This document shows positions 2,314-27,340 of a stretch of DNA of 29,281 nt, in pieces. Where the stretch lies: the IMG/VR virus record IMGVR_UViG_3300035445_000156, positions 62,001 to 91,281 of that record. One strand, written 5' to 3'. Source of the DNA: an uncultured virus (IMG/VR IMGVR_UViG_3300035445_000156) (Duplodnaviria > Heunggongvirae > Uroviricota > Caudoviricetes). The notes under the pieces are model-generated. The model was not told where the DNA came from, made no database searches, and saw nothing but the letters and a program-made list of their open reading frames with translations. Each line of letters opens with the position of its first letter. Within the stretch, counting starts at the first letter, position 1. Both the position numbers and the translations under genes were made by a program.

Positions 2314-2406
2314 GGCGCTCGGCAACGCGGTCCCGTACGAGATGGGCCGCGCCCTCGCGAGGACCGTCCGGCGCGCGATCGGGCTGCCGATCGTCTCGAG
2401 GGGCGC

Positions 2407-4290
2407 GTGAGGGTCCGCGAGCAGAGCCCCGACATGGGTCAAGATGACGGAGCCGTATCGCGCGCCGAGTTGGCCAGGGACAGGGCGCTCGTGGACGCCG
2501 TCCTGCGCCGCGCGGCGCTCGCCCGGACGAGCCCGAAGGTCGGCTTCTCGTTCGTCATGCGGGAGGAGCACGGCGAGCGCAGGCGCATCACGACGCTGCC
2601 CCACCAGCGGGTGATGATCGACTTCCTGGCACAGCACGACCGGGCCAACCTGCGCGCCTTCGTCGGCAGCTCCAAGACGTTCGTCCTGACCTACCTCGTC
2701 TTGACCCTGCTCGGCGCCGACCCGACCGCTCGCGGCGCGATCCTGAGCGCGACGCAGGACCAGGCGAAGAAGCCCCTGCGGCTCGTCTCGCAGTTCATCG
2801 AGAACCCCGACAACGCCTTCCCGGAGCTCGCGCTCGTCTACCCGCGCCTCCGGCCGACGCGGCGCAAGAGCGAGCCGTGGACGCAGGCGGAGATCGTGGT
2901 CGACCGGCCGGCGGGCATCCGCGACCCGAGCCTCGTCGCGGTCGGGATGGACACGGGCTCGCTCCCCGGGTCGCGCCTGTCATTCATCGTCCTCGACGAC
3001 GTCCTGAACGAGGCGAACACGCGGACGCCCGAGGCGCGGAAGAAGGTCCTCTCGTTCCTGCTCTCGACCGTGTTCACGCGCGAGGACATCCGGAACACGA
3101 AGATCTGGAACGCGACGCAGCCGTGGCACCCGGAGGACGTGACCTACGTGCTGCAGAAGTCGGGCTGGCCGACGCTGGAGATGGACGTGTGGGGCAACGT
3201 CGGGATCTGGGGCGCGCCCGACTTCGACACGGACGACATCCGGCCGGCGGCGCGGCGCGAGGGCCCGTATCACCGGCTCACCGCGCACGACTCGGCCGAG
3301 CACGGCGCGCCGCTCACGGTCGCCTACCCGGACGGGACGCGCGAGCTCGCGCGCGTCGGGCCGGTCGAGATAACACCGGTGTTATCTCCGGGACAAACCG
3401 CCGCGGGCGCCCGCCTCGAGCACTTCGACCTGGAGGAGGTCGTCCCGCTCTGGCCCGGGAAGTTCGGGCACGCGGAGATCCCGGGCATCCGGCAGAAGTT
3501 CGCGGCGCTGCCCGGCAAGTTCGCGCAGGCGTACGAGATGAACCCGCGCGATGACGAGCAGGCCGCGTGCAAGCAGGCGTGGGTGGACGCCTGCAAGGCG
3601 AACGGGCTCGCCATGGGACACCGGCGGATGGTCTCCCGCTACGACGGGCCGAACCTCACGGTGACGGGCGTCGACCTCGCGGTCGGCAAGAAGGCCGGCA
3701 GCGGCAAGACGAGCCTCTTCACGTACGAACTCCTGCCGACAGGCAAACGGAAGATCCTCAACATCCAGATCGGGCGCTGGTCGGGCCGGGAGATCGTGAC
3801 GCGCGTCCGAAACACGGAGCGCGACTTCAAGTCGATTGAACGGGTCGAATCCAACGCGGCTCAGGACTACCTGCGGCAGTGGGCGCTCGACGAGGAGGAC
3901 CTGCAGCGGGAGGAGCGGCGCGAGGCGCGCCGGCGCGCGGGGCAGGCGGCCAACACCGCTCCCCCCGAGCCCGCGTCGCTCCCGCTCATCCGCGCGCACT
4001 TCACGGGCCGGGAGAAGCACGACCCGACCTACGGCGTGCAGGGCGTCTTCATCGCGATGGAGAACGCGGTCTGGGTCATCCCCTGCGAGGACGACGGCAG
4101 CGTGCAGCCCGAGGTCCAGCAGTGGGTAGAGGACTGCCTCTACTTCCGGCCCGGCGCGCACACGGGCGACGTGCTCATGAGCTGCTGGCTCGCCTGCGAG
4201 CAGGAGCGCGAGGTCACGCGCGGGCGGGGCAGGCCGGACCCGGACGGCGAGCAGCAGCAGAGCGTCGCGGCCGCGCTGCTCTCCCGCTGA
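2407..4290 (+). CDS. terL: terminase large subunit
   Basis: Q-motif-like LPHQ, deviant Walker A (RAFVGSSKT), Walker B (GSRLSFIVLDD), PLWP linker, and RNase H-like nuclease motifs GVDLA, VESNAAQ and HTGDVLMS. An alternative start is ATG 2434. Confidence 0.9.
   Translation: MRVREQSPDMGQDDGAVSRAELARDRALVDAVLRRAALARTSPKVGFSFVMREEHGERRRITTLPHQRVMIDFLAQHDRANLRAFVGSSKTFVLTYLVLTLLGADPTARGAILSATQDQAKKPLRLVSQFIENPDNAFPELALVYPRLRPTRRKSEPWTQAEIVVDRPAGIRDPSLVAVGMDTGSLPGSRLSFIVLDDVLNEANTRTPEARKKVLSFLLSTVFTREDIRNTKIWNATQPWHPEDVTYVLQKSGWPTLEMDVWGNVGIWGAPDFDTDDIRPAARREGPYHRLTAHDSAEHGAPLTVAYPDGTRELARVGPVEITPVLSPGQTAAGARLEHFDLEEVVPLWPGKFGHAEIPGIRQKFAALPGKFAQAYEMNPRDDEQAACKQAWVDACKANGLAMGHRRMVSRYDGPNLTVTGVDLAVGKKAGSGKTSLFTYELLPTGKRKILNIQIGRWSGREIVTRVRNTERDFKSIERVESNAAQDYLRQWALDEEDLQREERREARRRAGQAANTAPPEPASLPLIRAHFTGREKHDPTYGVQGVFIAMENAVWVIPCEDDGSVQPEVQQWVEDCLYFRPGAHTGDVLMSCWLACEQEREVTRGRGRPDPDGEQQQSVAAALLSR
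3367..3399 (+). repeat. 33-bp palindromic dispersed element, copy 1 (inside terL)
   Basis: GAGATAACACCGGTGTTATCTCCGGGACAAACC, read in frame as EITPVLSPGQT. Confidence 0.97.
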
Positions 4291-4559
4291 GCATCATCCG
4301 ACGACGAATGAATCCCTATCGCACATCGCCGTGTCCGATCGAACGACGCGGACATGCACGCGGTCTTGGCTTGTTCGCGCTCTTCTTCGCGGCAATGGGC
4401 GTCCAGATGGTTGACTCCTATCCTGCAGAAGCGTGGACGCTGAGCGGCGGAGCGGGCTGCCTGATCGGGAGCTGCATCAGCGCGGCGTACTTGTGGTTTG
4501 CATGGGTGCTCCTCCGGGGGACGGTGCGATCATGAGCGTCACCTGCTGAGCATCATCCG
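4286..4559 (+). repeat. 15-bp direct repeats GCTGAGCATCATCCG (4286-4300 and 4545-4559) flanking a small gene
   Basis: Exact match read from the sequence. Confidence 0.85.
4308..4535 (+). CDS. small membrane protein (two hydrophobic segments)
   Basis: MNPYR... 75-aa ORF with hydrophobic stretches GLGLFALFFAAMGV and CLIGSCISAAYLWFAWVLL; visibly lower GC. Confidence 0.55.
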   Translation: MNPYRTSPCPIERRGHARGLGLFALFFAAMGVQMVDSYPAEAWTLSGGAGCLIGSCISAAYLWFAWVLLRGTVRS

Positions 4560-4563
4560 GGGC

Positions 4564-5010
4564 ATGCGCGTCCGAGAGGAGAAGTCGATCACGGTGACGA
4601 TGGTGCGACCGAAAGGTAAGGAGCTGCGGATCGAGATCCCGGCGCTCGCCGTCTTCGGCGACTTCGCGGCGACCGAGCGTCTGCGATTGGACGGTGAGAC
4701 CTATTCCGTACTCTCGCGGGAACCGGACGCGCGCGAGTGTCGGATCCTGCCTTCTGGCCGGCGCTCGTCGGTCCCCGAAGGGCATGTCCGGGCGGCGACC
4801 TACGCGGTGACGCACGTGCCGACGGGCCTGCGGGCGATCGACCGGATCCGGACCCGCAAGGCGGCCGTCGAGGCGGCGGAGGCGTGCTCGAAGACGGGCT
4901 TCGACTACTCGCTCCGGGACGACCCGAACCGGAGCGACGAGTGGTCCTCGATGGTCGCGGCGATCGTCGCGGTCAAGCGCGACCTCGAGGCGCGGCGGGC
5001 GACGTTCTGA
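4564..5010 (+). CDS. hypothetical protein
   Basis: ATG 4564 follows CATCAT-N7; contains a YAVTHVPTGL motif of the kind seen in small phage proteins. Confidence 0.65.
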   Translation: MRVREEKSITVTMVRPKGKELRIEIPALAVFGDFAATERLRLDGETYSVLSREPDARECRILPSGRRSSVPEGHVRAATYAVTHVPTGLRAIDRIRTRKAAVEAAEACSKTGFDYSLRDDPNRSDEWSSMVAAIVAVKRDLEARRATF

Positions 5011-5013
5011 CCC

Positions 5014-6072
5014 CTAGCGGCGCGCGGCCGCGGCCATCGCCCGCGCCTCCCTGATCCCCGCCTTGAGCGTCGCCCGCGTCACGAAGCCCTCGATCGCGAC
5101 GTCCTGCTCGACCATCGTCTGCGCGACCGCGCCCCGGATGCCGGTGAGGACGCAGCGCGCCCCGAGCAGCGCGAGGACCCGCGCGAGCTTGACGAAGGCG
5201 TCGACGACGCCGCTGTCCATGACGGGCACGCCGGTCACGTCGACGATGACGACCTCGACGCCCCTCGCCGTCACGGTCGCCGACGCCTGCTCGACTATCT
5301 GCAGCGACCGGGCGCTGTCGAACACGCCGACGATCGGGAGCAGGAGCACCCCTTCGTCGATCTCGATCGCGGGCGTCGACAGTTCGGCTATCGCCCGCTC
5401 CTGCGCGCGGGTCTTGTCGACCAGCGTCTCGAGCCGTTCGTTCGCCTCGACGAGTTCGGTCTCCCTCGCCGCGAGTCGCTCGTTCGTCTCCTGCAGCTCG
5501 GCGACGAGCGCGAGCAGTCGCTCGTTCGCGACCCTCGACGACTCCGCCTCCCGCTCCGCGCTCTCGGCCGACACGCGCGCATCTTCCGCCAGTCGCTCGG
5601 CCCGCGCGGTCTGCTCCCGCAGCTCGACTCCCTGCCGGCCGAGCGCGAGCAGGTCCGGCCGGCGCTTGTGCAGCACGTAGGCGGTCGCGACCGAGACCGC
5701 GCCCCCCGCCGCGTAGAGCTTCACCGCGAGCCAGTAGTAGGGCCAGTAGAGCAGCAGGACGCTCGCGGCGTGCGTCGCGCCGCAGAGGACGATGAACAGG
5801 CCGAAGAGGGTCAGGAGCCGGCCGCCGGGCCGCACGGCAAGCCCGAGATAGACCGCGACGAGCACCACCGGGATCCACGTGTAGGCGGCGGAGAAGGAGC
5901 CGTTCCAGAGGACCCACAATCCCCGGAGCGACTCGTCCTCGGTCGTGCGCAGGCACTCGACGCGCTCGAACCACGGGAACGCGAACCACGTCCAGAGCAC
6001 GAGGGCGGAGAGGACGACCGAGCCGGCGATCTCGAGGCCGAGGGTCGCCGCGGGACGGATGCGCTGCTTCAT
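5014..6072 (-). CDS. membrane sensor: ethylene-receptor-like TM domain + coiled coil + RsbR-like STAS domain
   Basis: TM helices carry AYTWIP, FIVLCGATH and YWL...VSVATA; a heptad-rich linker follows; the C-terminus has ELSTPAIEI...LLPIVGVFDSAR...VDVTGVPVMDS...LLGARCVLTGI, typical of RsbR/STAS. Confidence 0.9.
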   Translation of the reverse strand: MKQRIRPAATLGLEIAGSVVLSALVLWTWFAFPWFERVECLRTTEDESLRGLWVLWNGSFSAAYTWIPVVLVAVYLGLAVRPGGRLLTLFGLFIVLCGATHAASVLLLYWPYYWLAVKLYAAGGAVSVATAYVLHKRRPDLLALGRQGVELREQTARAERLAEDARVSAESAEREAESSRVANERLLALVAELQETNERLAARETELVEANERLETLVDKTRAQERAIAELSTPAIEIDEGVLLLPIVGVFDSARSLQIVEQASATVTARGVEVVIVDVTGVPVMDSGVVDAFVKLARVLALLGARCVLTGIRGAVAQTMVEQDVAIEGFVTRATLKAGIREARAMAAAARR

Positions 6073-6092
6073 GGCCGCGCATCATCCGGCGT

Positions 6093-6653
6093 ATGAGCCA
6101 ACGACCGATCGACCCGGAAGCAGAAGGATTCATCGATTCGATACCGGCGGAGACGGCGAGATACGTGTCCGCGGCGAAGAAGATCGATCTGACGTGCGGG
6201 GGCTTGCTCCTGCAGGACTCCCGGGAGCTCCTCCGCGGGGACGCGGGCGGCGAGATAACACCGGTGTTATCTCCGGGACAAACCGAACGGCCGAACGATC
6301 TGCTCGGCAAAACGGTCCTGCACGGACCGAGCGGTGTCGTCGGATCCGTACGTCGGATCTACGGGCCGGGCGAGTACCTGGTCAAGCCGAAAGGCGTCGA
6401 GACGAGCGGCCGGCCGGTGAGCGAGTCGGTCGTCGAGCTCGAGGACGGCAACGCCTTCCTCTTCCGGTCGGGCGCGTTCACGGTGCTGGAGGCGCCGGAG
6501 CTGCGACTCTGGAAGCTCGCCGGCCTGGCAGTCCGGGAGGCAGCGGAGAACATTGTCGGGGCCGGCGCCGCCTTCAGGGTCACCCCCGAGACGACGACCG
6601 CGATCTTGAAGGCGGCGCTCTCCGCGCAGCTCCGGACTCTCTCGCTCGACTGA
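6093..6653 (+). CDS. hypothetical protein
   Basis: ATG follows CATCAT-N7; 186-aa ORF containing element copy 2 in frame. Confidence 0.65.
   Translation: MSQRPIDPEAEGFIDSIPAETARYVSAAKKIDLTCGGLLLQDSRELLRGDAGGEITPVLSPGQTERPNDLLGKTVLHGPSGVVGSVRRIYGPGEYLVKPKGVETSGRPVSESVVELEDGNAFLFRSGAFTVLEAPELRLWKLAGLAVREAAENIVGAGAAFRVTPETTTAILKAALSAQLRTLSLD
6252..6284 (+). repeat. 33-bp palindromic dispersed element, copy 2
   Basis: Identical to copy 1. Confidence 0.97.
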
Positions 6654-6681
6654 GGCGTTCGGGCGCTGATACCGTCCCGCC

Positions 6682-8304
6682 ATGGCGGGATCCGGCGACC
6701 GGGTGATGGTGCTGAACACGCGCGAGCGGCTGGTCAGCACGGACCACAACAGGCTGCAGCAGTTCAAGGGGGCGGACACCGCGAGCGTGCTCGCGCGGCT
6801 CCTGCTCTCCTCCGACGACGAGGACATCGGTTCCGGCGAGGAGGCGCTCGTCTCGAGCGTGACCGACCCGCTCACGGCGGCGGTCCTCGACGGGATCCGG
6901 TTCATGCCGCTGAACGGCACGGTCGACGCGCTCGTGTCCTCGGGCGTCGTCGCGCTGGCCGACCCGGACGGCGCCCCCTCCGCGGACGACGTGCCGTGGA
7001 AGTGGGTCGTCGACCCCGGGATCACCGCGACCGGGACGCTCGTCATGACGCCCGGCGCGGGCGCGACCCGGGTAGACGTGGTCGAGTTCTCCCGCACGGT
7101 CGAGGACCAGGAGTTCGACAACCGGGACGTCTTCGACCCGAGCACCGGCCTGTTCACGCCGGTCAACGTCGTCAAGGTCCGGCGCGGCCGGCTCGCCTAC
7201 CGGATCAGGACGGGCACGCCGGCCGCAGGCTTCCCGGGCACGGCGTCGGGGTGGTGCCCGATCGCGGTCTGCTCGGTCCCCGCCGCCGCCGCGAGCTGGG
7301 ACGTCGTCCAGATCTGGGACGTGCGCCCCCTCGCGCGCGACCGGGTGAACTCGCCCTTCGCCTCGAGCGCGCGCTGGGCGCGCCGGCGCTCGGGCCACCT
7401 GTCGACCGACATCAGCGTGCCGCTGAACGTCAAGGTCTCGGGCAAGGTCGACACGAGCCTCGGGCCGTGGCGCGCGGGCGGGCGGGTCGGCGTGACCGCG
7501 CTCGGGGCGGAGCCGACCGGGTTCTTCGACGTCCGGTCGCCCGCGAACCAGGAGGTCGGCTTCACGGGGTTCGGCGCGAACGGGCCGAACGGCTACTACT
7601 CCGTCTACTTCGTCTTCCCCTTCGGCCTGCCGCGGTGGATGCGCTACTCGGACTTCACCTCGGGCGCCCGGGTGCCGGTCGGCACGCGCGGGATCATGAG
7701 CGTGTCGATGAGCCTGCCGAACTTCAACGGCCGGCCGGTAGCAGCGGTCACGACGCCCGCCTCGACGGGACTGCTCGACCCCGGGACGAACGTGTACGCG
7801 ACGCTCGCCTGGACCGCGAGGACGGCGGTCGGCGTCCCGTTCGGCGTCGTCGAGGACGGCGACTGGACGAGTCAGGTCAACTTCAACCTGCCCCCTGTCG
7901 CACCGTCGACCGTCTCCGACCCGTCCTACATCGAGTGGACGGTCACGACGACGAACGACTTCCCCGGCAACGCCCGGGCGGTACACCTCTACTTGTCGGC
8001 CGACTTCACGGTCGTCGCCGCGGCGGATAAGGCGGCCGGGCTGATCACGGTCTCGGAGGTGGGCGACGGCAGGACGCCCCTCGCGGGCGCCGTCCTGAAC
8101 GCCTCGTTCACGCCGCTCGTGACGGGCGTGAACCAGTCGACGGTGATCTCGGTCATGATCCCGTTGACTTTCGCGACGGTCGCGGGGAACGAGTTCGCGG
8201 GCGGCAACCGGACCTACCTGGTCCGGTGGCAGTATCTCGGCGCGGTCGGCACGACGAGCGCGAACCAAGGGCTGCTCGTGCTGGCGTGGCGGCTCGGCCC
8301 GTGA
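6682..8304 (+). CDS. putative virion structural protein (tail fibre/baseplate-like)
   Basis: 540-aa ORF rich in G/T/S/V/P with beta-rich character; TACCGT-N6 before the ATG. The function is an inference. Confidence 0.5.
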   Translation: MAGSGDRVMVLNTRERLVSTDHNRLQQFKGADTASVLARLLLSSDDEDIGSGEEALVSSVTDPLTAAVLDGIRFMPLNGTVDALVSSGVVALADPDGAPSADDVPWKWVVDPGITATGTLVMTPGAGATRVDVVEFSRTVEDQEFDNRDVFDPSTGLFTPVNVVKVRRGRLAYRIRTGTPAAGFPGTASGWCPIAVCSVPAAAASWDVVQIWDVRPLARDRVNSPFASSARWARRRSGHLSTDISVPLNVKVSGKVDTSLGPWRAGGRVGVTALGAEPTGFFDVRSPANQEVGFTGFGANGPNGYYSVYFVFPFGLPRWMRYSDFTSGARVPVGTRGIMSVSMSLPNFNGRPVAAVTTPASTGLLDPGTNVYATLAWTARTAVGVPFGVVEDGDWTSQVNFNLPPVAPSTVSDPSYIEWTVTTTNDFPGNARAVHLYLSADFTVVAAADKAAGLITVSEVGDGRTPLAGAVLNASFTPLVTGVNQSTVISVMIPLTFATVAGNEFAGGNRTYLVRWQYLGAVGTTSANQGLLVLAWRLGP

Positions 8305-9599
8305 CCCTCGCCTCCCTCTTTGCCGCGCACGACGTTCGGCAGGAAGACGTTGCAGCCGCGGCGGGTGTAGACCCGCGCCTCTTCGACCGCATCGACGCCG
8401 GCCTGCAGCCGATCCCCGCCGACGTCGCCGCGTCGGTCGCCCTGTCCCTCTCCGTCTCCCCCGCCGAGGTCTACCGGGAGGCCGGCGAGTGGACGCTCGA
8501 CGTGTCCGCCGCCTCCAAGAGGCCGGTGCCGGTCGACCCCGACCTCTACGGCGGGCGGGTCGACTACGCGCCGCTCTCCCCGCTGTCGACCGCGCCGATC
8601 GTCCCCCCGCCCGCTCCCCCGTCGGGCTGGGTCGTCTACGACCGGGCCGTCAACGACAGCGTGCTCGTGCGGTTCCACCGCGACTCGGGCGCGCTCCTGT
8701 CCGCGACGCCGCTCTCCGGGGTCCTGATCGGCGCGCGCTCCGTGCTCGACCTGGCGGCCGGCGGCGGGGAGCTCTTCGCGGTCGCCTCCGCGGGCAACGG
8801 GGCGGCCTATCGGGTCGACGCGAAGACGGCGGCGGTCGAGGCGCGGAGCGCGCTCTCCTACGCTGGCGCGCGGGCGATCGAGCACGAGCCGGTCACCGGC
8901 ACGCTCTGGGTCGCGGACACGGCGGCCGAGCGGCTGCGTCGGCTCAGGCTCGACGACATGGAGCCGGCCGCGAGCCTGACGCTCACCGACTCGGGGACGG
9001 ACTACGACCCGGCCGACCTCGTCGCGCTCGGGGGCTACCTCTACGTGCTCGCGACCGACCCGAGCGGGGACGCCTTCGTCTGGCAGGTCGACCCGGTGAC
9101 GGACTCGGTCGTCGCGCAGAGCGGGCTCCTGCCGGACGCGGCGTGCCTCGCGGCGAGCACGGCGGAGCAGACCGGCGCGCCGTTCCTGTGGGTCGTCACG
9201 TCGACCTCGATCGTCCACCGCCTCGACCCGACGACGCTCGCGGGCGGGAACGCGTCGATCCCGGGCGCGCCGCTGGAGAACCCGTCGGCCGTCGTGTTCT
9301 TCTCCTCGCGCCTGTGGGTCTCGGAGCGGACGGTCGTCGGGGACGACCCGAAGTGGTCCGCCGTCGAGCTCGCCGGCTTCACGGTCACCGCGACCCAGAC
9401 CTACCCCGCGAGCCCCGTGACCGGGCTAGGGCGCATGGCGACCGACGGCGTGTTCGCGTGGGCGCCGCACGCGGGGAGCCTGCTCGTCCCCGACGGCCTG
9501 GAACGGCTCAACCCGAACGACTACGCGAGCGTGCTCTCCGCGCGGCCGGCGTCCCCCGCTGACGCGGCGCGCGTCCCGTCGGCGATGCTCTTCCTCTGA
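8301..9599 (+). CDS. XRE-like HTH fused to a beta-propeller-like domain
   Basis: GTG 8301 is coupled to the upstream stop. The N-terminus VRQEDVAAAAGVDPRLFDRIDAG is HTH-like; repeated blade-like units follow (AYRVD, LWVAD, VWQVDP, LWVV...VHRLDP, LWVSE). Confidence 0.6.
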   Translation: MTLASLFAAHDVRQEDVAAAAGVDPRLFDRIDAGLQPIPADVAASVALSLSVSPAEVYREAGEWTLDVSAASKRPVPVDPDLYGGRVDYAPLSPLSTAPIVPPPAPPSGWVVYDRAVNDSVLVRFHRDSGALLSATPLSGVLIGARSVLDLAAGGGELFAVASAGNGAAYRVDAKTAAVEARSALSYAGARAIEHEPVTGTLWVADTAAERLRRLRLDDMEPAASLTLTDSGTDYDPADLVALGGYLYVLATDPSGDAFVWQVDPVTDSVVAQSGLLPDAACLAASTAEQTGAPFLWVVTSTSIVHRLDPTTLAGGNASIPGAPLENPSAVVFFSSRLWVSERTVVGDDPKWSAVELAGFTVTATQTYPASPVTGLGRMATDGVFAWAPHAGSLLVPDGLERLNPNDYASVLSARPASPADAARVPSAMLFL

Positions 9600-11376: not shown

Positions 11377-11709
11377 ATGCTCGTCAACAGACTGATTTCC
11401 GGCTCGGCCGCTCTCCTGCGATGGGCGGCCGAGGTCCTGGAGAGCCGGATCGGAGATAACACCGGTGTTATCTCCGGGACAAGCCAGGAAGCGGAGAACG
11501 ACTACGTCCCCGCGCAGGACCCGGTGACGCCCGAGGCCCGCGCGCTGCTGCGCGGCGAGTGCGCGCACGGGATGACGAAGGACTGCGCGACGTGCTCGTA
11601 CGAGGGGAAGCACGGGCCGGGCGCCCAGTCCCCGCCGCCCCCTGACGACGCGGTCCCGGCAGACAGGTACTTCTCCGCGAAGCCGGCCCGCAGGGTGTTC
11701 CGGCCGTGA
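11377..11709 (+). CDS. hypothetical protein with CxHG...CxxC motif
   Basis: TAGCCT-N7 before the ATG; the stop overlaps the portal start. Confidence 0.6.
   Translation: MLVNRLISGSAALLRWAAEVLESRIGDNTGVISGTSQEAENDYVPAQDPVTPEARALLRGECAHGMTKDCATCSYEGKHGPGAQSPPPPDDAVPADRYFSAKPARRVFRP
11453..11485 (+). repeat. 33-bp palindromic dispersed element, copy 3
   Basis: The palindrome is intact and extends to 26 bp (11451-11476); the tail variant is CGGGACAAGCC; read as DNTGVISGTS. Confidence 0.95.
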
Positions 11710-20330: not shown

Positions 20331-20996
20331 GTGAAGCTCGACGAACATCTCTCGAAGGCGGACCCGAACGTCCTCGCCGACATCTTCCGCAAGATCAACC
20401 TCGCGCAGGTCCTGCGCGGGCAGGTCCCGCAGTTCCTCCGGCGCAAGGTCCCGGCGGCCGGCGTCCAGCTCGCGACGCTCGAGACGCTCGTGCTCGCCGA
20501 CAACGCGAAGGCGTCGGTCGTCATCCGCGCGACCGTCCGGGCGGGCGGCGTGACCGGCGAGCTCGACCCGCAGACGTACGGGACGACTCCCGCGACAACG
20601 CAGATCGCAGTCGCCCCGAACGGGGACATCGTCGTGCTCGCCGCCGACGCGATCACGGACATCGACGTGCACTACCTGCCCGAGCGCGGGGACGTCTACG
20701 AGACGACGATGCCCGTCATCTCCGACGTGCTCACCCCCTCGACCACATTCACTGCCTCGCCGCGCGGCATCGTGCTGCTCCTCGAGGCGGAGGCGGTCGA
20801 GGCGACGAGCACGGGGGACAAGGTCGTCCTCGTGCCCGGGTCGGTGCCGGCAGCGGGTCAGGCGGCCCTCACGGACGACGAGAAGCTCTCGGTCACGTTC
20901 GCCGCGGCCGACGCGGTGACGCGCGCCCGGGTCAAGTTCCTGCTCGTCGCGCTGCAGGACCTCGACGCGCTGCTCGAGTCGGAGGCGACCGTCTGA
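20331..20996 (+). CDS. putative head decoration/structural protein
   Basis: SD GAGGAGG; A/T/V-rich 221 aa upstream of the scaffold and capsid genes. Confidence 0.55.
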   Translation: MKLDEHLSKADPNVLADIFRKINLAQVLRGQVPQFLRRKVPAAGVQLATLETLVLADNAKASVVIRATVRAGGVTGELDPQTYGTTPATTQIAVAPNGDIVVLAADAITDIDVHYLPERGDVYETTMPVISDVLTPSTTFTASPRGIVLLLEAEAVEATSTGDKVVLVPGSVPAAGQAALTDDEKLSVTFAAADAVTRARVKFLLVALQDLDALLESEATV

Positions 20997-21027
20997 GATA
21001 ACACCGGTGTTATCTCCGGGACAAACC
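20995..21027 (+). repeat. 33-bp palindromic dispersed element, copy 4
   Basis: Identical to copy 1; overlaps the TGA stop and abuts the scaffold gene's SD. Confidence 0.97.
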
Positions 21028-27307: not shown

Positions 27308-27340
27308 GAGATAACACCGGTGTTATCTCAAGGACAAACC
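27308..27340 (+). repeat. 33-bp palindromic dispersed element, copy 5 (intergenic)
   Basis: The palindrome is intact; the tail variant is AAGGACAAACC. Confidence 0.95.

What the first reader, a model, noticed from the sequence alone, without database searches (positions are those of the whole stretch)
5014..6072. Phage-borne ethylene-receptor-like sensor fused to an RsbR-type STAS domain
Seen: a membrane N-terminus with AYTWIP, FIVLCGATH (5770-5796) and YWL...VSVATA, then a coiled coil and a STAS domain. Known: FIVLCGATH is the helix-II sequence of the Arabidopsis ETR1 ethylene-binding domain containing Cys65/His69, and AYxxIP matches helix I. By my alignment the Asp25 position is Asn and the Lys91 position is not Lys, so the ligand may differ. 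The STAS domain has Ser (FDSAR, MDSGV) at the positions of the RsbRA phospho-Thr residues. Inference: the phage may insert a copper/gas-sensing subunit into the host stressosome or partner-switching network. No RsbS or RsbT gene is present in this window.
Basis: partly seen in the sequence, partly recalled or inferred. Interest (0 to 1): 0.8.

Follow-up and report, generated by a model that had tools for sequence, protein, structure and literature searches.

The report
Phage-encoded ethylene-receptor-like membrane sensor
A complete wetland phage genome carries a well-conserved gene for a membrane protein that joins the copper-dependent ethylene-binding domain of plant and bacterial ethylene receptors to the output domain of bacterial stress-sensing complexes, so the phage may read an environmental signal and pass it into its host's stress signalling.

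Summary
Window 5014-6072 (-) is a real 352-aa gene (GC3 0.96). It matches Pfam ETR1_N (56 bits, cut-off 27) and STAS (48.7 bits, cut-off 22.6). Its STAS domain is closest to stressosome RsbR (PDB E 1e-19 to 1e-20), with Ser at both RsbR phospho-sites. The record is a complete 91-kb phage with terminal repeats. It has no integrase, and no RsbS, RsbT or PP2C gene.

The gene lies antisense beside the large terminase. A second phage contig keeps the same arrangement (81% aa identity, dN/dS 0.32). Close variants occur in wetland and peat runs from four other studies, with 13 synonymous and 3 non-synonymous listed differences.

The Cu ligands Cys and His are kept. The ETR1 Asp25/Lys91 pair is Asn57/Tyr120, a neutral variant that recurs in the family: 6 of 41 members have Asn, and none of those has Lys or Arg.

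ETR1_N-STAS is a small family that I did not find in print. Forty other clusters carry it, but none of 80 species-representative genome loci does. Phage carriage also appears unreported.

Still inferred: that it signals through a host stressosome or partner-switching kinase, and that the ligand is ethylene. The host is unknown. I rate it a new variant of a known kind, interest about 0.7.

The parts
5014..6072 (-). Sensor gene, 352 aa (P0001): extra TM helix + ETR1_N ethylene-binding domain + coiled coil + RsbR-type STAS
5980..6051 (-). Extra N-terminal transmembrane helix (residues 8-31). The N-terminus has 3 Lys/Arg and so should be cytoplasmic.
   Evidence: model helices; loop charges
5953..5955 (-). 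Cys40 in the predicted periplasmic loop before helix I. Conserved in 39 of 41 family members and inside the predicted dimer interface. Candidate inter-chain disulfide.
5641..5919 (-). ETR1_N (ethylene-binding domain) Pfam match, residues 52-144, three TM helices
5902..5904 (-). Asn57, at the ETR1 Asp25 / AzoEtr1 Asp35 position (40 residues before the Cu-ligand Cys)
5770..5796 (-). Helix II motif FIVLCGATH with Cys97 and His101 (ETR1 Cys65/His69 equivalents). Both are invariant in 41 of 41 family members.
5713..5715 (-). Tyr120, at the ETR1 Lys91 / AzoEtr1 Lys98 position (23 residues after the Cys, as in AzoEtr1). Predicted to touch Asn57 of the other chain.
5377..5640 (-). Cytoplasmic coiled-coil linker (residues 145-232), continuous with TM helix III. 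The predicted dimer shows 3/4-spaced contacts.
5020..5373 (-). RsbR-type STAS domain (residues 234-351)
5314..5316 (-). Ser253, aligned with Listeria RsbR Thr175
5212..5214 (-). Ser287, aligned with Listeria RsbR Thr209
2407..4290 (+). Large terminase subunit, convergent with the sensor. The same pairing is found in the second phage contig L087.
6252..6273 (.). One of 16 exact copies of a 22-bp palindrome (GAGATAACACCGGTGTTATCTC), 180 bp upstream of the sensor start. Probably a phage promoter or operator element for + strand genes. Any role for the sensor gene is unknown.

Best explanation
The gene encodes a dimeric inner-membrane sensor made by an apparently virulent myovirus-like phage. (I call it virulent only because no integrase or serine-recombinase match was found.)

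Anatomy (shown):
- One extra transmembrane helix comes first. It is followed by the three-helix ethylene-binding domain of the ETR1 / SynEtr1 / AzoEtr1 type, with the Cu(I) ligands Cys97 and His101.
- Helix III continues without a break into a roughly 90-residue parallel coiled coil.
- The coiled coil ends in a cytoplasmic RsbR-type STAS domain with Ser at both RsbT phospho-acceptor positions.
- The protein has no enzymatic output domain.

Mechanism (inferred):
- Binding of a small ligand at the copper site changes the packing of helices I-III. By homology the ligand is ethylene or a similar small unsaturated gas.
- The Asn57/Tyr120 pair replaces Asp/Lys, so binding probably has lower affinity and faster release than in plant ETR1.
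- The change travels down the coiled coil and alters how the STAS domain engages a host partner.
- The most likely partners are an RsbT-type kinase together with host RsbS/RsbR STAS proteins. The phage protein would then act as an extra, phage-supplied RsbR paralogue of the host stressosome or of a related partner-switching module.
- This would let the phage tune the host's stress response during infection according to an environmental cue.

The anatomy, the phage location, the conservation and the residue pattern are shown. The ligand, the partner and the physiological effect are inferred.
For: Domains:
- ETR1_N scores 56 bits (cut-off 27) and STAS 48.7 bits (cut-off 22.6).
- By sequence, the STAS domain matches PDB RsbR chains best: 6qcm, 7b0u and 7o0i at E 8e-20 to 3e-18. 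RsbS chains score only 7e-9 to 1e-7.
- By fold, the top matches are all stressosome proteins. Rank 1 is 7b0u at E 2.9e-9.
- The NCBIfam YtvA family matches the STAS part at E 5e-20.
- Ser253 and Ser287 align with RsbR T175 and T209.

Residues:
- Across 41 ETR1_N-STAS proteins, the Tyr64, Cys97 and His101 columns are invariant (41 of 41).
- Columns 57 and 120 covary. With Asp or Glu at 57, 26 of 32 have Lys or Arg at 120. With Asn at 57, 0 of 6 do. One member has a swapped Arg/Glu pair.
- These two positions touch across the predicted dimer.
- The spacing is Cys-40 and Cys+23. This equals the published AzoEtr1 spacing D35/C75/K98.

Dimer model: score 0.67 against a best control of 0.00 (3 controls). 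That mark was reached by 20 of 30 proteins solved as pairs of one chain and by 1 of 23 solved as single chains. The runs agree in at least 85% of contacts, and partner pLDDT is at least 79. No ethylene-binding domain has been solved, so the membrane interface is not recalled from a solved structure.

Function in the phage:
- The record is a complete phage with terminal repeats.
- A second phage contig, L087, keeps the gene convergent with TerL. The sensor is 81% identical and TerL 72%.
- Sensor: dN 0.127, dS 0.399. TerL: dN 0.181, dS 0.400.
- Variants at 95-99% identity occur in wetland and peat runs of 4 other studies. Of the 16 listed differences inside the gene, 13 are synonymous and 3 are not.

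Literature (passages read):
- ETR1 D25N loses detectable high-affinity binding yet still signals ethylene in planta. Asn occurs naturally at this position in 3.67% of ethylene-binding domains (PMC10266040).
- Bacterial AzoEtr1 binds ethylene (PMC11819568).
- The Listeria stressosome is tethered to the membrane through Prli42 (PMC6614362).
Against: - The Asp25/Lys91 pair is lost. ETR1 D25N showed only minimal Cu binding in vitro and no detectable saturable ethylene binding. K91M and K91A retained 6% and 1% of binding and transmitted the signal poorly (PMC10266040). Ethylene sensing may therefore be weak, absent or replaced.
- The phage has no RsbS, RsbT or PP2C, and the host is unknown. Host stressosome genes could not be checked.
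- In 7 of 7 metagenome loci examined, the nearest STAS-only relatives (PAS/GAF-STAS proteins) have no RsbS or RsbT gene among the downstream same-strand ORFs I scanned. This STAS subtype need not work through a classical stressosome.
- The dimer model gives no confident contacts beyond residue 225, so it says nothing about the STAS domains.
- The sigma-70 consensus scan found no promoter upstream of the gene. Its single promoter-like match lies inside the coding sequence.
Confidence: 0.5

Rival explanations
1. Same architecture and output, but the ligand is not ethylene. The Cys/His site would sense Cu(I) itself, redox state or another small molecule. The neutral Asn57/Tyr120 pair would mark a functionally distinct subtype of the domain.
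For: - Asn57 and Tyr120 replace the Asp/Lys pair that ETR1 needs for high-affinity ethylene binding and for signal transmission.
- All 6 of 6 Asn-type family members lack Lys or Arg at position 120, which suggests a coherent subtype rather than decay.
- No member of the ETR1_N-STAS family has been assayed. No paper in the searched library holds both 'ethylene-binding' and 'STAS domain'.
Against: - ETR1 D25N still mediates ethylene responses in planta, and these are blocked by 1-MCP and silver (PMC10266040).
- All other binding-site positions are kept.
- The closest relative, P0002 (61% identical), keeps Asp and Lys. The difference therefore lies within one clade.
Confidence: 0.22
2. A ligand-independent decoy. 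The membrane domain serves only as an anchor and dimeriser. The STAS domain sequesters a host RsbT/RsbW-type kinase at the membrane, shutting down or locking on the host general stress response during infection.
For: - There is no partner gene in the phage.
- The STAS part is the best-conserved part of the clade: 74-90% identity among P0001, P0002, P0022 and L087, and 75-78% to the PAS-containing P0003 and P0004.
- The STAS domains are free in the dimer model.
Against: - The Cu-ligand Cys and His and the other binding-site residues are invariant or nearly so across 41 proteins. A mere anchor would not need this.
- Among close variants, 7 of the 9 listed differences in the membrane part (codons 52-134) are synonymous.
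Confidence: 0.15
3. Passive cargo. A host gene picked up by the phage, with no role for the phage.
For: - The gene is antisense to its neighbours, in a moron-like position.
- The DNA between it and TerL differs between the two phages.
Against: - The gene is kept in the same place in two phages that have diverged to dS 0.40. Its dN/dS is 0.32, lower than TerL's 0.45.
- Listed population variants are 13 synonymous to 3 non-synonymous.
- No close chromosomal homologue was found among the 80 best loci from 185,579 species-representative genomes.
Confidence: 0.05
4. Assembly artefact or host DNA wrongly joined into a viral contig.
For: None found.
Against: - The gene lies between TerL and structural genes in a record with terminal repeats.
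- An independent metagenome contig has the same junction with TerL.
- One contig from another study (X3 record 10) spans the 3' junction of the gene, covering 4655-5260. Another (X3 record 12) runs from 5311 past the start codon to 6087.
Confidence: 0.02

Closest known systems
Ethylene receptors with the ETR1-type binding domain: Arabidopsis ETR1, Synechocystis SynEtr1, Azospirillum AzoEtr1
   Same: - A three-helix membrane domain that matches Pfam ETR1_N.
- Cys and His copper ligands in helix II.
- The positions I recall as the other residues required for ethylene binding (ETR1 Tyr32, Ile35, Pro36, Ile62) are Tyr64, Ile67, Pro68 and Ile94 here.
- A predicted homodimer with a conserved external Cys.
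- An extra N-terminal helix, as in plant subfamily-2 receptors (PMC5285503).
   Different: - The output is a STAS domain reached through a coiled coil. ETR1 uses GAF plus histidine kinase, and AzoEtr1 uses PAS plus histidine kinase.
- Asp25 is Asn and Lys91 is Tyr.
- The gene is carried by a phage.
RsbR-family stressosome proteins (B. subtilis RsbRA and YtvA, Listeria RsbR, Vibrio vulnificus RsbR)
   Same: - A C-terminal STAS domain preceded by a linker helix. It is the best sequence and fold match.
- Hydroxyl residues at both phospho-acceptor sites.
- The gene is unlinked to rsbS/rsbT, as I recall is also true of the Bacillus RsbR paralogues.
- I recall that the Vibrio RsbR has a gas-binding (O2, haem globin) sensor domain, which would be a precedent for gas sensing by a stressosome. 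I did not check this here.
   Different: - The sensor is an integral membrane domain rather than a soluble globin-like or LOV domain.
- The linker is much longer: a single helix of 120 residues.
- The phospho-acceptors are Ser, not Thr.
- It is encoded by a phage, and no RsbS or RsbT partner is known.
Prli42, the membrane mini-protein that tethers the Listeria stressosome (PMC6614362)
   Same: It would link stressosome-type STAS signalling to the membrane.
   Different: Prli42 is a separate small protein that binds the RsbR turret. Here the membrane part and the STAS domain are one polypeptide.
Uncharacterised ETR1_N-STAS and ETR1_N-PAS-STAS proteins from metagenomes (P0002-P0140)
   Same: The same architecture. 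Forty of 40 tested pass both Pfam cut-offs, at 25-64% identity to the phage protein.
   Different: Their origin, cell or phage, is unknown except for L087. Most keep the Asp/Lys pair, and 4 of 40 have a PAS domain inserted.

Membership tests
ETR1-type ethylene-binding domain (Pfam PF25487 ETR1_N) | Profile match above the curated cut-off | tested here: met
   56 bits against a cut-off of 27, E 4.8e-15, residues 52-144 matched to profile positions 5-97. Six-frame search of the genome: 59.9 bits.
ETR1-type ethylene-binding domain (Pfam PF25487 ETR1_N) | Three transmembrane helices, with the third leading into the cytoplasmic part | tested here: met
   Model helices 47-77, 84-109 and 113-232 at pLDDT above 90. 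The loop charges fit a cytoplasmic C-terminus.
ETR1-type ethylene-binding domain (Pfam PF25487 ETR1_N) | Copper ligands Cys65 and His69 in helix II | tested here: met
   Cys97 and His101 lie in FIVLCGATH. Both are invariant in 41 of 41 family members.
ETR1-type ethylene-binding domain (Pfam PF25487 ETR1_N) | Other residues required for ethylene binding in ETR1 (Tyr32, Ile35, Pro36, Ile62). This list is recalled from Wang et al. 2006. The papers I read name only D25 and C65 among the seven. | tested here: met
   Tyr64, Ile67, Pro68 and Ile94 sit at a constant offset of 32 from ETR1 numbering. Family counts: Tyr 41/41, Ile 34/41 (Met 7), Pro 36/41, Ile 36/41 (Val 5).
ETR1-type ethylene-binding domain (Pfam PF25487 ETR1_N) | Asp25, which contributes to copper binding and high-affinity ethylene binding | tested here: not met
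   The position is Asn57. In the family it is Asp 28, Asn 6, Glu 4 and other 3, of 41. Asn is a natural minority state, found in 3.67% of ethylene-binding domains, and ETR1 D25N still signals (PMC10266040).
ETR1-type ethylene-binding domain (Pfam PF25487 ETR1_N) | Lys91 in helix III, paired with Asp25 | tested here: not met
   The position is Tyr120. In the family it is Lys 22 and Arg 4 of 41. A Lys sits two residues earlier, at 118.
ETR1-type ethylene-binding domain (Pfam PF25487 ETR1_N) | Disulfide-linked homodimer | tested here: inconclusive
   The model supports a homodimer: score 0.67, best of 3 controls 0.00. Cys40 is conserved in 39 of 41 members and lies in the interface. No biochemistry was done.
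ETR1-type ethylene-binding domain (Pfam PF25487 ETR1_N) | Saturable Cu(I)-dependent ethylene binding | not testable with these tools
   Needs the expressed protein and binding assays.
RsbR-type stressosome STAS protein | STAS fold at the C-terminus after a linker helix | tested here: met
   Pfam STAS. Model strands and helices at 236-351. Foldseek ranks 1-9 are all stressosome proteins.
RsbR-type stressosome STAS protein | Closer to RsbR than to RsbS, RsbV or SpoIIAA | tested here: met
   RsbR chains score E 8e-20 to 3e-18 and RsbS chains 7e-9 to 1e-7. No RsbV or SpoIIAA chain appears at E up to 0.01. The STAS part matches the YtvA family at E 5e-20, with the whole protein below that model's cut-off.
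RsbR-type stressosome STAS protein | Phosphorylatable residues at the two RsbT target sites (Listeria T175 and T209) | tested here: met
   Ser253 and Ser287 by the HMMER alignment to 7b0u. Family counts: Ser 33 and Thr 4 at the first site, Thr 34 and Ser 7 at the second, of 41.
RsbR-type stressosome STAS protein | RsbS and RsbT encoded alongside or elsewhere in the same genome | tested here: not met
   The whole phage genome has 1 STAS match (this gene), 0 HATPase_c_2 and 0 SpoIIE. The host genome is unknown.
RsbR-type stressosome STAS protein | Assembly with RsbS into a stressosome core and capture of RsbT | not testable with these tools
   The host and its partners are not identified.
Phage auxiliary ('moron'-like) gene | Non-structural gene inserted in a phage module, opposite in orientation and retained by selection | tested here: met
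   It is the only well-supported minus-strand gene between TerL and the head genes. A second phage keeps the synteny. dN/dS is 0.32. No own promoter or terminator was recognised.

The most novel reading that the evidence does not exclude
A virulent wetland phage carries its own receptor for ethylene, or for a related gas. During infection it uses the receptor to couple an environmental cue to the host's stressosome-type stress signalling. The cue might be waterlogging, anoxia, nearness to roots or microbial ethylene production. This would be the first virus-encoded receptor of the plant-hormone ethylene type. It would also be the first case of a virus supplying a sensory subunit to a bacterial stress-signalling hub.
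Probability: 0.25. Interest if true: 0.9.

Novelty: new variant of a known kind. Interest (0 to 1): 0.7.

Why it matters
- Phages are known to carry metabolic and regulatory host-like genes, but I know of very few reports of a phage-encoded membrane receptor for an environmental small molecule. If this sensor works, a phage is adjusting infection to an external chemical cue through the host's own stress-signalling machinery.
- It widens the known outputs of the ethylene-binding domain beyond histidine kinases to a phospho-switch STAS domain.
- It offers a compact 352-aa bacterial-type protein for structural work on this domain. No solved structure of the domain was found.
- The natural Asn/non-Lys subtype bears directly on the published Asp25-Lys91 model of signal transmission in ETR1.

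Tried and rejected
- Isolated phages (INPHARED). There was no DNA match to window 2400-8400. The protein matched only the STAS part, weakly, in 3 unannotated Listeria phage records.
- TerL and major-capsid tblastn gave only distant hits (27-34% identity) to phages of unrelated hosts, so they gave no host clue.
- IMG/VR scans with alignment A1, with TerL, with the two-TerL alignment A3 and with P0028 found no relative. These scans are pattern-based and can miss relatives.
- Host inference failed by every route tried. There are no tRNA genes in the first 64 kb. The NDK homologue search returned no organism names. The profile search with A2 returned no names. Genome handles show no taxonomy. The only hints towards Myxococcota are source names on STAS relatives and Atlas structural neighbours; these are leads, not evidence.
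- No open reading frame with both domains was found in 160 fetched loci, 80 from species genomes and 80 from metagenomes.
- No defence-system match was found for the gene or for its two flanking ORFs.
- The sigma-70 promoter and terminator scan found nothing usable.
- Sequencing runs: no RNA holder is listed, so nothing can be said about expression.
- Earlier findings of this scan: nothing by place or by sequence.
- A Z-genome idea, raised by the MazZ-like gene, was dropped because no PurZ-type match was found.
The contigs that hold P0004 (16 kb), P0130 (27 kb), P0027 (38 kb), P0028 (88.7 kb) and P0026 (105 kb) could not be read.
Full report
**1. What is there**

Window 5014-6072 on the minus strand is a 352-aa open reading frame. 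Its GC content at codon positions 1, 2 and 3 is 0.72, 0.48 and 0.96, the signature of a true gene in this 70% GC sequence. Nearly all other well-supported genes in the window run on the plus strand.

Pfam gives two matches above the curated cut-offs:
- ETR1_N, 'Ethylene receptor 1-like, N-terminal domain': residues 52-144, 56 bits against a cut-off of 27.
- STAS: residues 234-321, 48.7 bits against a cut-off of 22.6.

FIVLCGATH is residues 93-101, window 5770-5796.

An AlphaFold2 model built on 41 family sequences has a mean pLDDT of 91.2. It shows:
- an extra N-terminal helix (8-31);
- the three helices of the binding domain (47-77, 84-109, and one starting at 113);
- the third helix continuing unbroken to residue 232;
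- a STAS fold at 236-351.

Loop charges fit a cytoplasmic N-terminus, an external loop 32-46 and a cytoplasmic STAS domain.

**2. It is a phage gene**

The window is the last 29 kb of a 91,281-bp IMG/VR virus record that is classed as having direct terminal repeats and as 100% complete. The two ends share 2,887 identical bases.

PHROG and Pfam matches across the genome include:
- Structure and packaging: large terminase (window 2407-4290), major head protein, head morphogenesis, neck, tail sheath and baseplate J.
- Replication and repair: family-B DNA polymerase, DnaB helicase, primase, a UvsX-like recombinase, SbcCD and RuvC.
- Nucleotide enzymes.

There is no match to tyrosine integrase or serine recombinase, so the phage looks virulent. 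The genome holds one STAS match (this gene), no HATPase_c_2 (the RsbT/RsbW type) and no SpoIIE/PP2C. No isolated phage resembles it closely.

**3. The gene is kept by selection**

A 3,690-bp metagenome contig, L087, holds the last 159 codons of a homologue. It is 81% identical in protein, and it is convergent with a TerL that is 72% identical to the window's TerL.

By Nei-Gojobori counts:

| Gene | Codons | dN | dS | dN/dS |
|---|---|---|---|---|
| Sensor | 144 | 0.127 | 0.399 | 0.32 |
| TerL | 542 | 0.181 | 0.400 | 0.45 |

The equal dS fits the two genes having diverged together, and the sensor is at least as constrained as the terminase. The DNA between the two genes differs between the phages.

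Two further protein fragments or variants, P0002 and P0022, are 88-90% identical to the L087 copy.

Contigs of public runs from four other studies hold pieces of the gene at mostly 95-99% identity. These are three wetland runs and one peat run; the likely source run was left out. Examples are 777 bases with 24 differences and 324 bases with 3. Of the 16 listed differences inside the gene, 13 are synonymous and 3 are not. The tool did not show 60 further differences for the 2.4-kb stretch.

**4. The sensor domain**

*Spacing argument.* Published equivalences for the Azospirillum receptor are D35, C75, H79 and K98, matching ETR1 D25, C65, H69 and K91 (PMC11819568, passages). In the phage protein the Cys is residue 97 and the His is 101. 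The residue 40 before the Cys is Asn57. The residue 23 after it, the AzoEtr1 spacing, is Tyr120.

*Other binding residues.* I recall that the seven residues required for ethylene binding also include Tyr32, Ile35, Pro36 and Ile62; this part is recalled, not read. Their equivalents here are Tyr64, Ile67, Pro68 and Ile94.

*Family counts.* Across 41 ETR1_N-STAS proteins:

| Column | Counts (of 41) |
|---|---|
| Tyr64 | Tyr 41 |
| Cys97 | Cys 41 |
| His101 | His 41 |
| Asp25 column (Asn57) | Asp 28, Asn 6, Glu 4, other 3 |
| Lys91 column (Tyr120) | Lys 22, Arg 4, other 15 |

*Covariation.* The two columns covary. Of 32 proteins with Asp or Glu, 26 have Lys or Arg. Of 6 with Asn, none does. One protein has the swapped pair Arg/Glu.

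*Predicted contact.* In a homodimer model, residue 57 of one chain touches residue 120 of the other, and Cys97/His101 and Cys40 lie in the interface. Details of that model:
- The score is 0.67 against a best control of 0.00 (3 controls).
- That mark was reached by 20 of 30 proteins solved as pairs of one chain and by 1 of 23 solved as single chains.
- The runs agree in at least 85% of contacts, and partner pLDDT is at least 79.
- No ethylene-binding domain is in the PDB by sequence, so this interface is not recalled from a solved structure.

*What the literature says about this variant.* According to passages of PMC10266040:
- Asp25 is found in 93.55% of binding domains and Asn in 3.67%.
- ETR1 D25N loses detectable copper binding in vitro and detectable ethylene binding. 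It still mediates ethylene responses in planta, and these are blocked by silver and 1-MCP. The authors read this as lower affinity.
- Lys91 is needed to pass the signal to helix III.

The phage protein therefore belongs to a recurring neutral-pair subtype. Its ligand affinity, or even its ligand, may differ from ETR1.

**5. The output domain**

Against PDB sequences, the STAS part with its preceding helix (residues 221-346) matches RsbR of the Listeria and Vibrio stressosomes at E 8e-20 to 3e-18. RsbS chains score 7e-9 to 1e-7. The Foldseek top hits are all stressosome proteins. The NCBIfam YtvA family matches the STAS part at E 5e-20.

In the HMMER alignment, Listeria RsbR T175 and T209 fall on Ser253 and Ser287. 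These are the RsbT target sites, equivalent to B. subtilis T171 and T205 (PMC6614362, passages).

The nearest STAS-only relatives on long metagenome contigs are PAS/GAF-STAS proteins. In 7 of 7 loci examined, no RsbS or RsbT gene was among the downstream same-strand ORFs I scanned. This STAS type is therefore often encoded apart from its partners, and a classical stressosome is not the only possible context.

**6. How common is the architecture**

An exhaustive HMMER search of 1.84 billion cluster representatives gave 10,222 hits at E up to 0.001. Most of these are STAS-only proteins.

- Of the 149 other listed representatives, 36 carry both domains.
- With 4 more from the 90% clusters, 40 of 40 tested pass both Pfam cut-offs. 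Four of the 40 have a PAS domain between the two.
- I dropped two short fragments, P0131 and P0150, before this count.
- None of the 80 best loci from 185,579 species-representative genomes, and none of 80 metagenome loci, has both domains in one reading frame.
- The binding domain alone is widespread in cyanobacteria, Bacteroidota, Planctomycetota and others, at 25-42% identity.

In IMG/VR, a motif scan found one other viral record with an ETR1_N protein: a 56-kb linear record rated 69% complete. The protein is a stand-alone 155-aa form that scores 62.7 bits and also has Asn at the Asp25 column.

In the searched library, no paper holds 'ethylene-binding' together with 'STAS domain', and none holds 'ethylene-binding domain' together with 'phage'.

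**7. Reading**

The shown facts support a phage-made, dimeric membrane sensor with a protein-interaction output. The step from there to 'joins the host stressosome' is inference from the RsbR likeness. The step to 'senses ethylene' is inference from domain homology, tempered by the Asn/Tyr pair.

The habitat fits an ethylene cue, because ethylene builds up in waterlogged soils. That statement is recalled and was not checked here.

The host is unknown. The only hints are source names on STAS relatives and Atlas neighbours, both pointing to Myxococcota.

The rivals are a different ligand, a ligand-independent decoy, passive cargo and an artefact. They are weighed in their own sections; the last two are disfavoured by the conservation data.

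Noticed in passing
window 3367-3388, 6252-6273, 11453-11474, 20995-21016, 27308-27329, and 11 more in the rest of the genome: A 22-bp perfect palindrome (GAGATAACACCGGTGTTATCTC) occurs 16 times without a mismatch in the 91-kb genome, against 0 expected in shuffles of the window. It is usually followed by CGGGACAAACC on the plus strand and lies ahead of plus-strand genes. It looks like a phage-specific promoter or operator. One copy lies inside the TerL reading frame, at a place where the TerL of contig L087 has different residues.
   Followed up: partly
L179:2797-3261 (viral record G006, 56 kb, linear, 69% complete): A second, unrelated, low-GC viral record encodes a stand-alone 155-aa ETR1_N protein (62.7 bits against a cut-off of 27). 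It lies among small co-oriented ORFs with a few PHROG matches and also has Asn at the Asp25 column.
   Followed up: partly
window 6088-6250: One contig of run X3 joins window 6087 to 6251, skipping 163 bases. In that variant the palindrome would lie about 15 bases from the sensor's start codon. It also argues that ORF 6093-6653 (+) is not a conserved gene (table 5; a single contig, depth 6.3).
   Followed up: no
G000:C1 about 31121-31816 (L182:1393-2085, +): A 231-aa ORF between the UvrD-like helicase and the polymerase region has a weak match to sigma-70 region 2: 17-19 bits, below the cut-off of 24. It is possibly a divergent phage sigma factor. Three masked bases (N) lie inside it.
   Followed up: partly
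L086:3643-3969 (G000:C1 57643-57969): A MazZ-like dATP/dGTP diphosphohydrolase domain (103 bits) lies next to NDK and dCTP deaminase genes. No adenylosuccinate-synthetase (PurZ-type) match exists in the genome, so nothing indicates a 2-aminoadenine genome.
   Followed up: yes
INPHARED records OR847461.1, OR846743.1, OR848102.1: Three unannotated 'Listeria phage' records hold RsbR-like STAS coding sequence (29-34% identity to residues 217-337). This could be host DNA in those records or real phage STAS genes.
   Followed up: no
P0028 (contig 88,751 bp) and P0026 (contig 105,495 bp): Two ETR1_N-STAS family members lie on long contigs. One has a length close to this phage's unique length of about 88.4 kb. 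The P0028 contig is not in IMG/VR by the pattern scan. Whether either contig is viral could not be checked.
   Followed up: partly
residues 57-58 of the sensor (window 5899-5904): The Asn at the Asp25 position is followed by Gly. The ETR1 paper cites the Asn-Gly motif as prone to deamidation to Asp, and notes that this is suppressed in helices (PMC10266040). Whether Asn57 could be converted to Asp is open.
   Followed up: no
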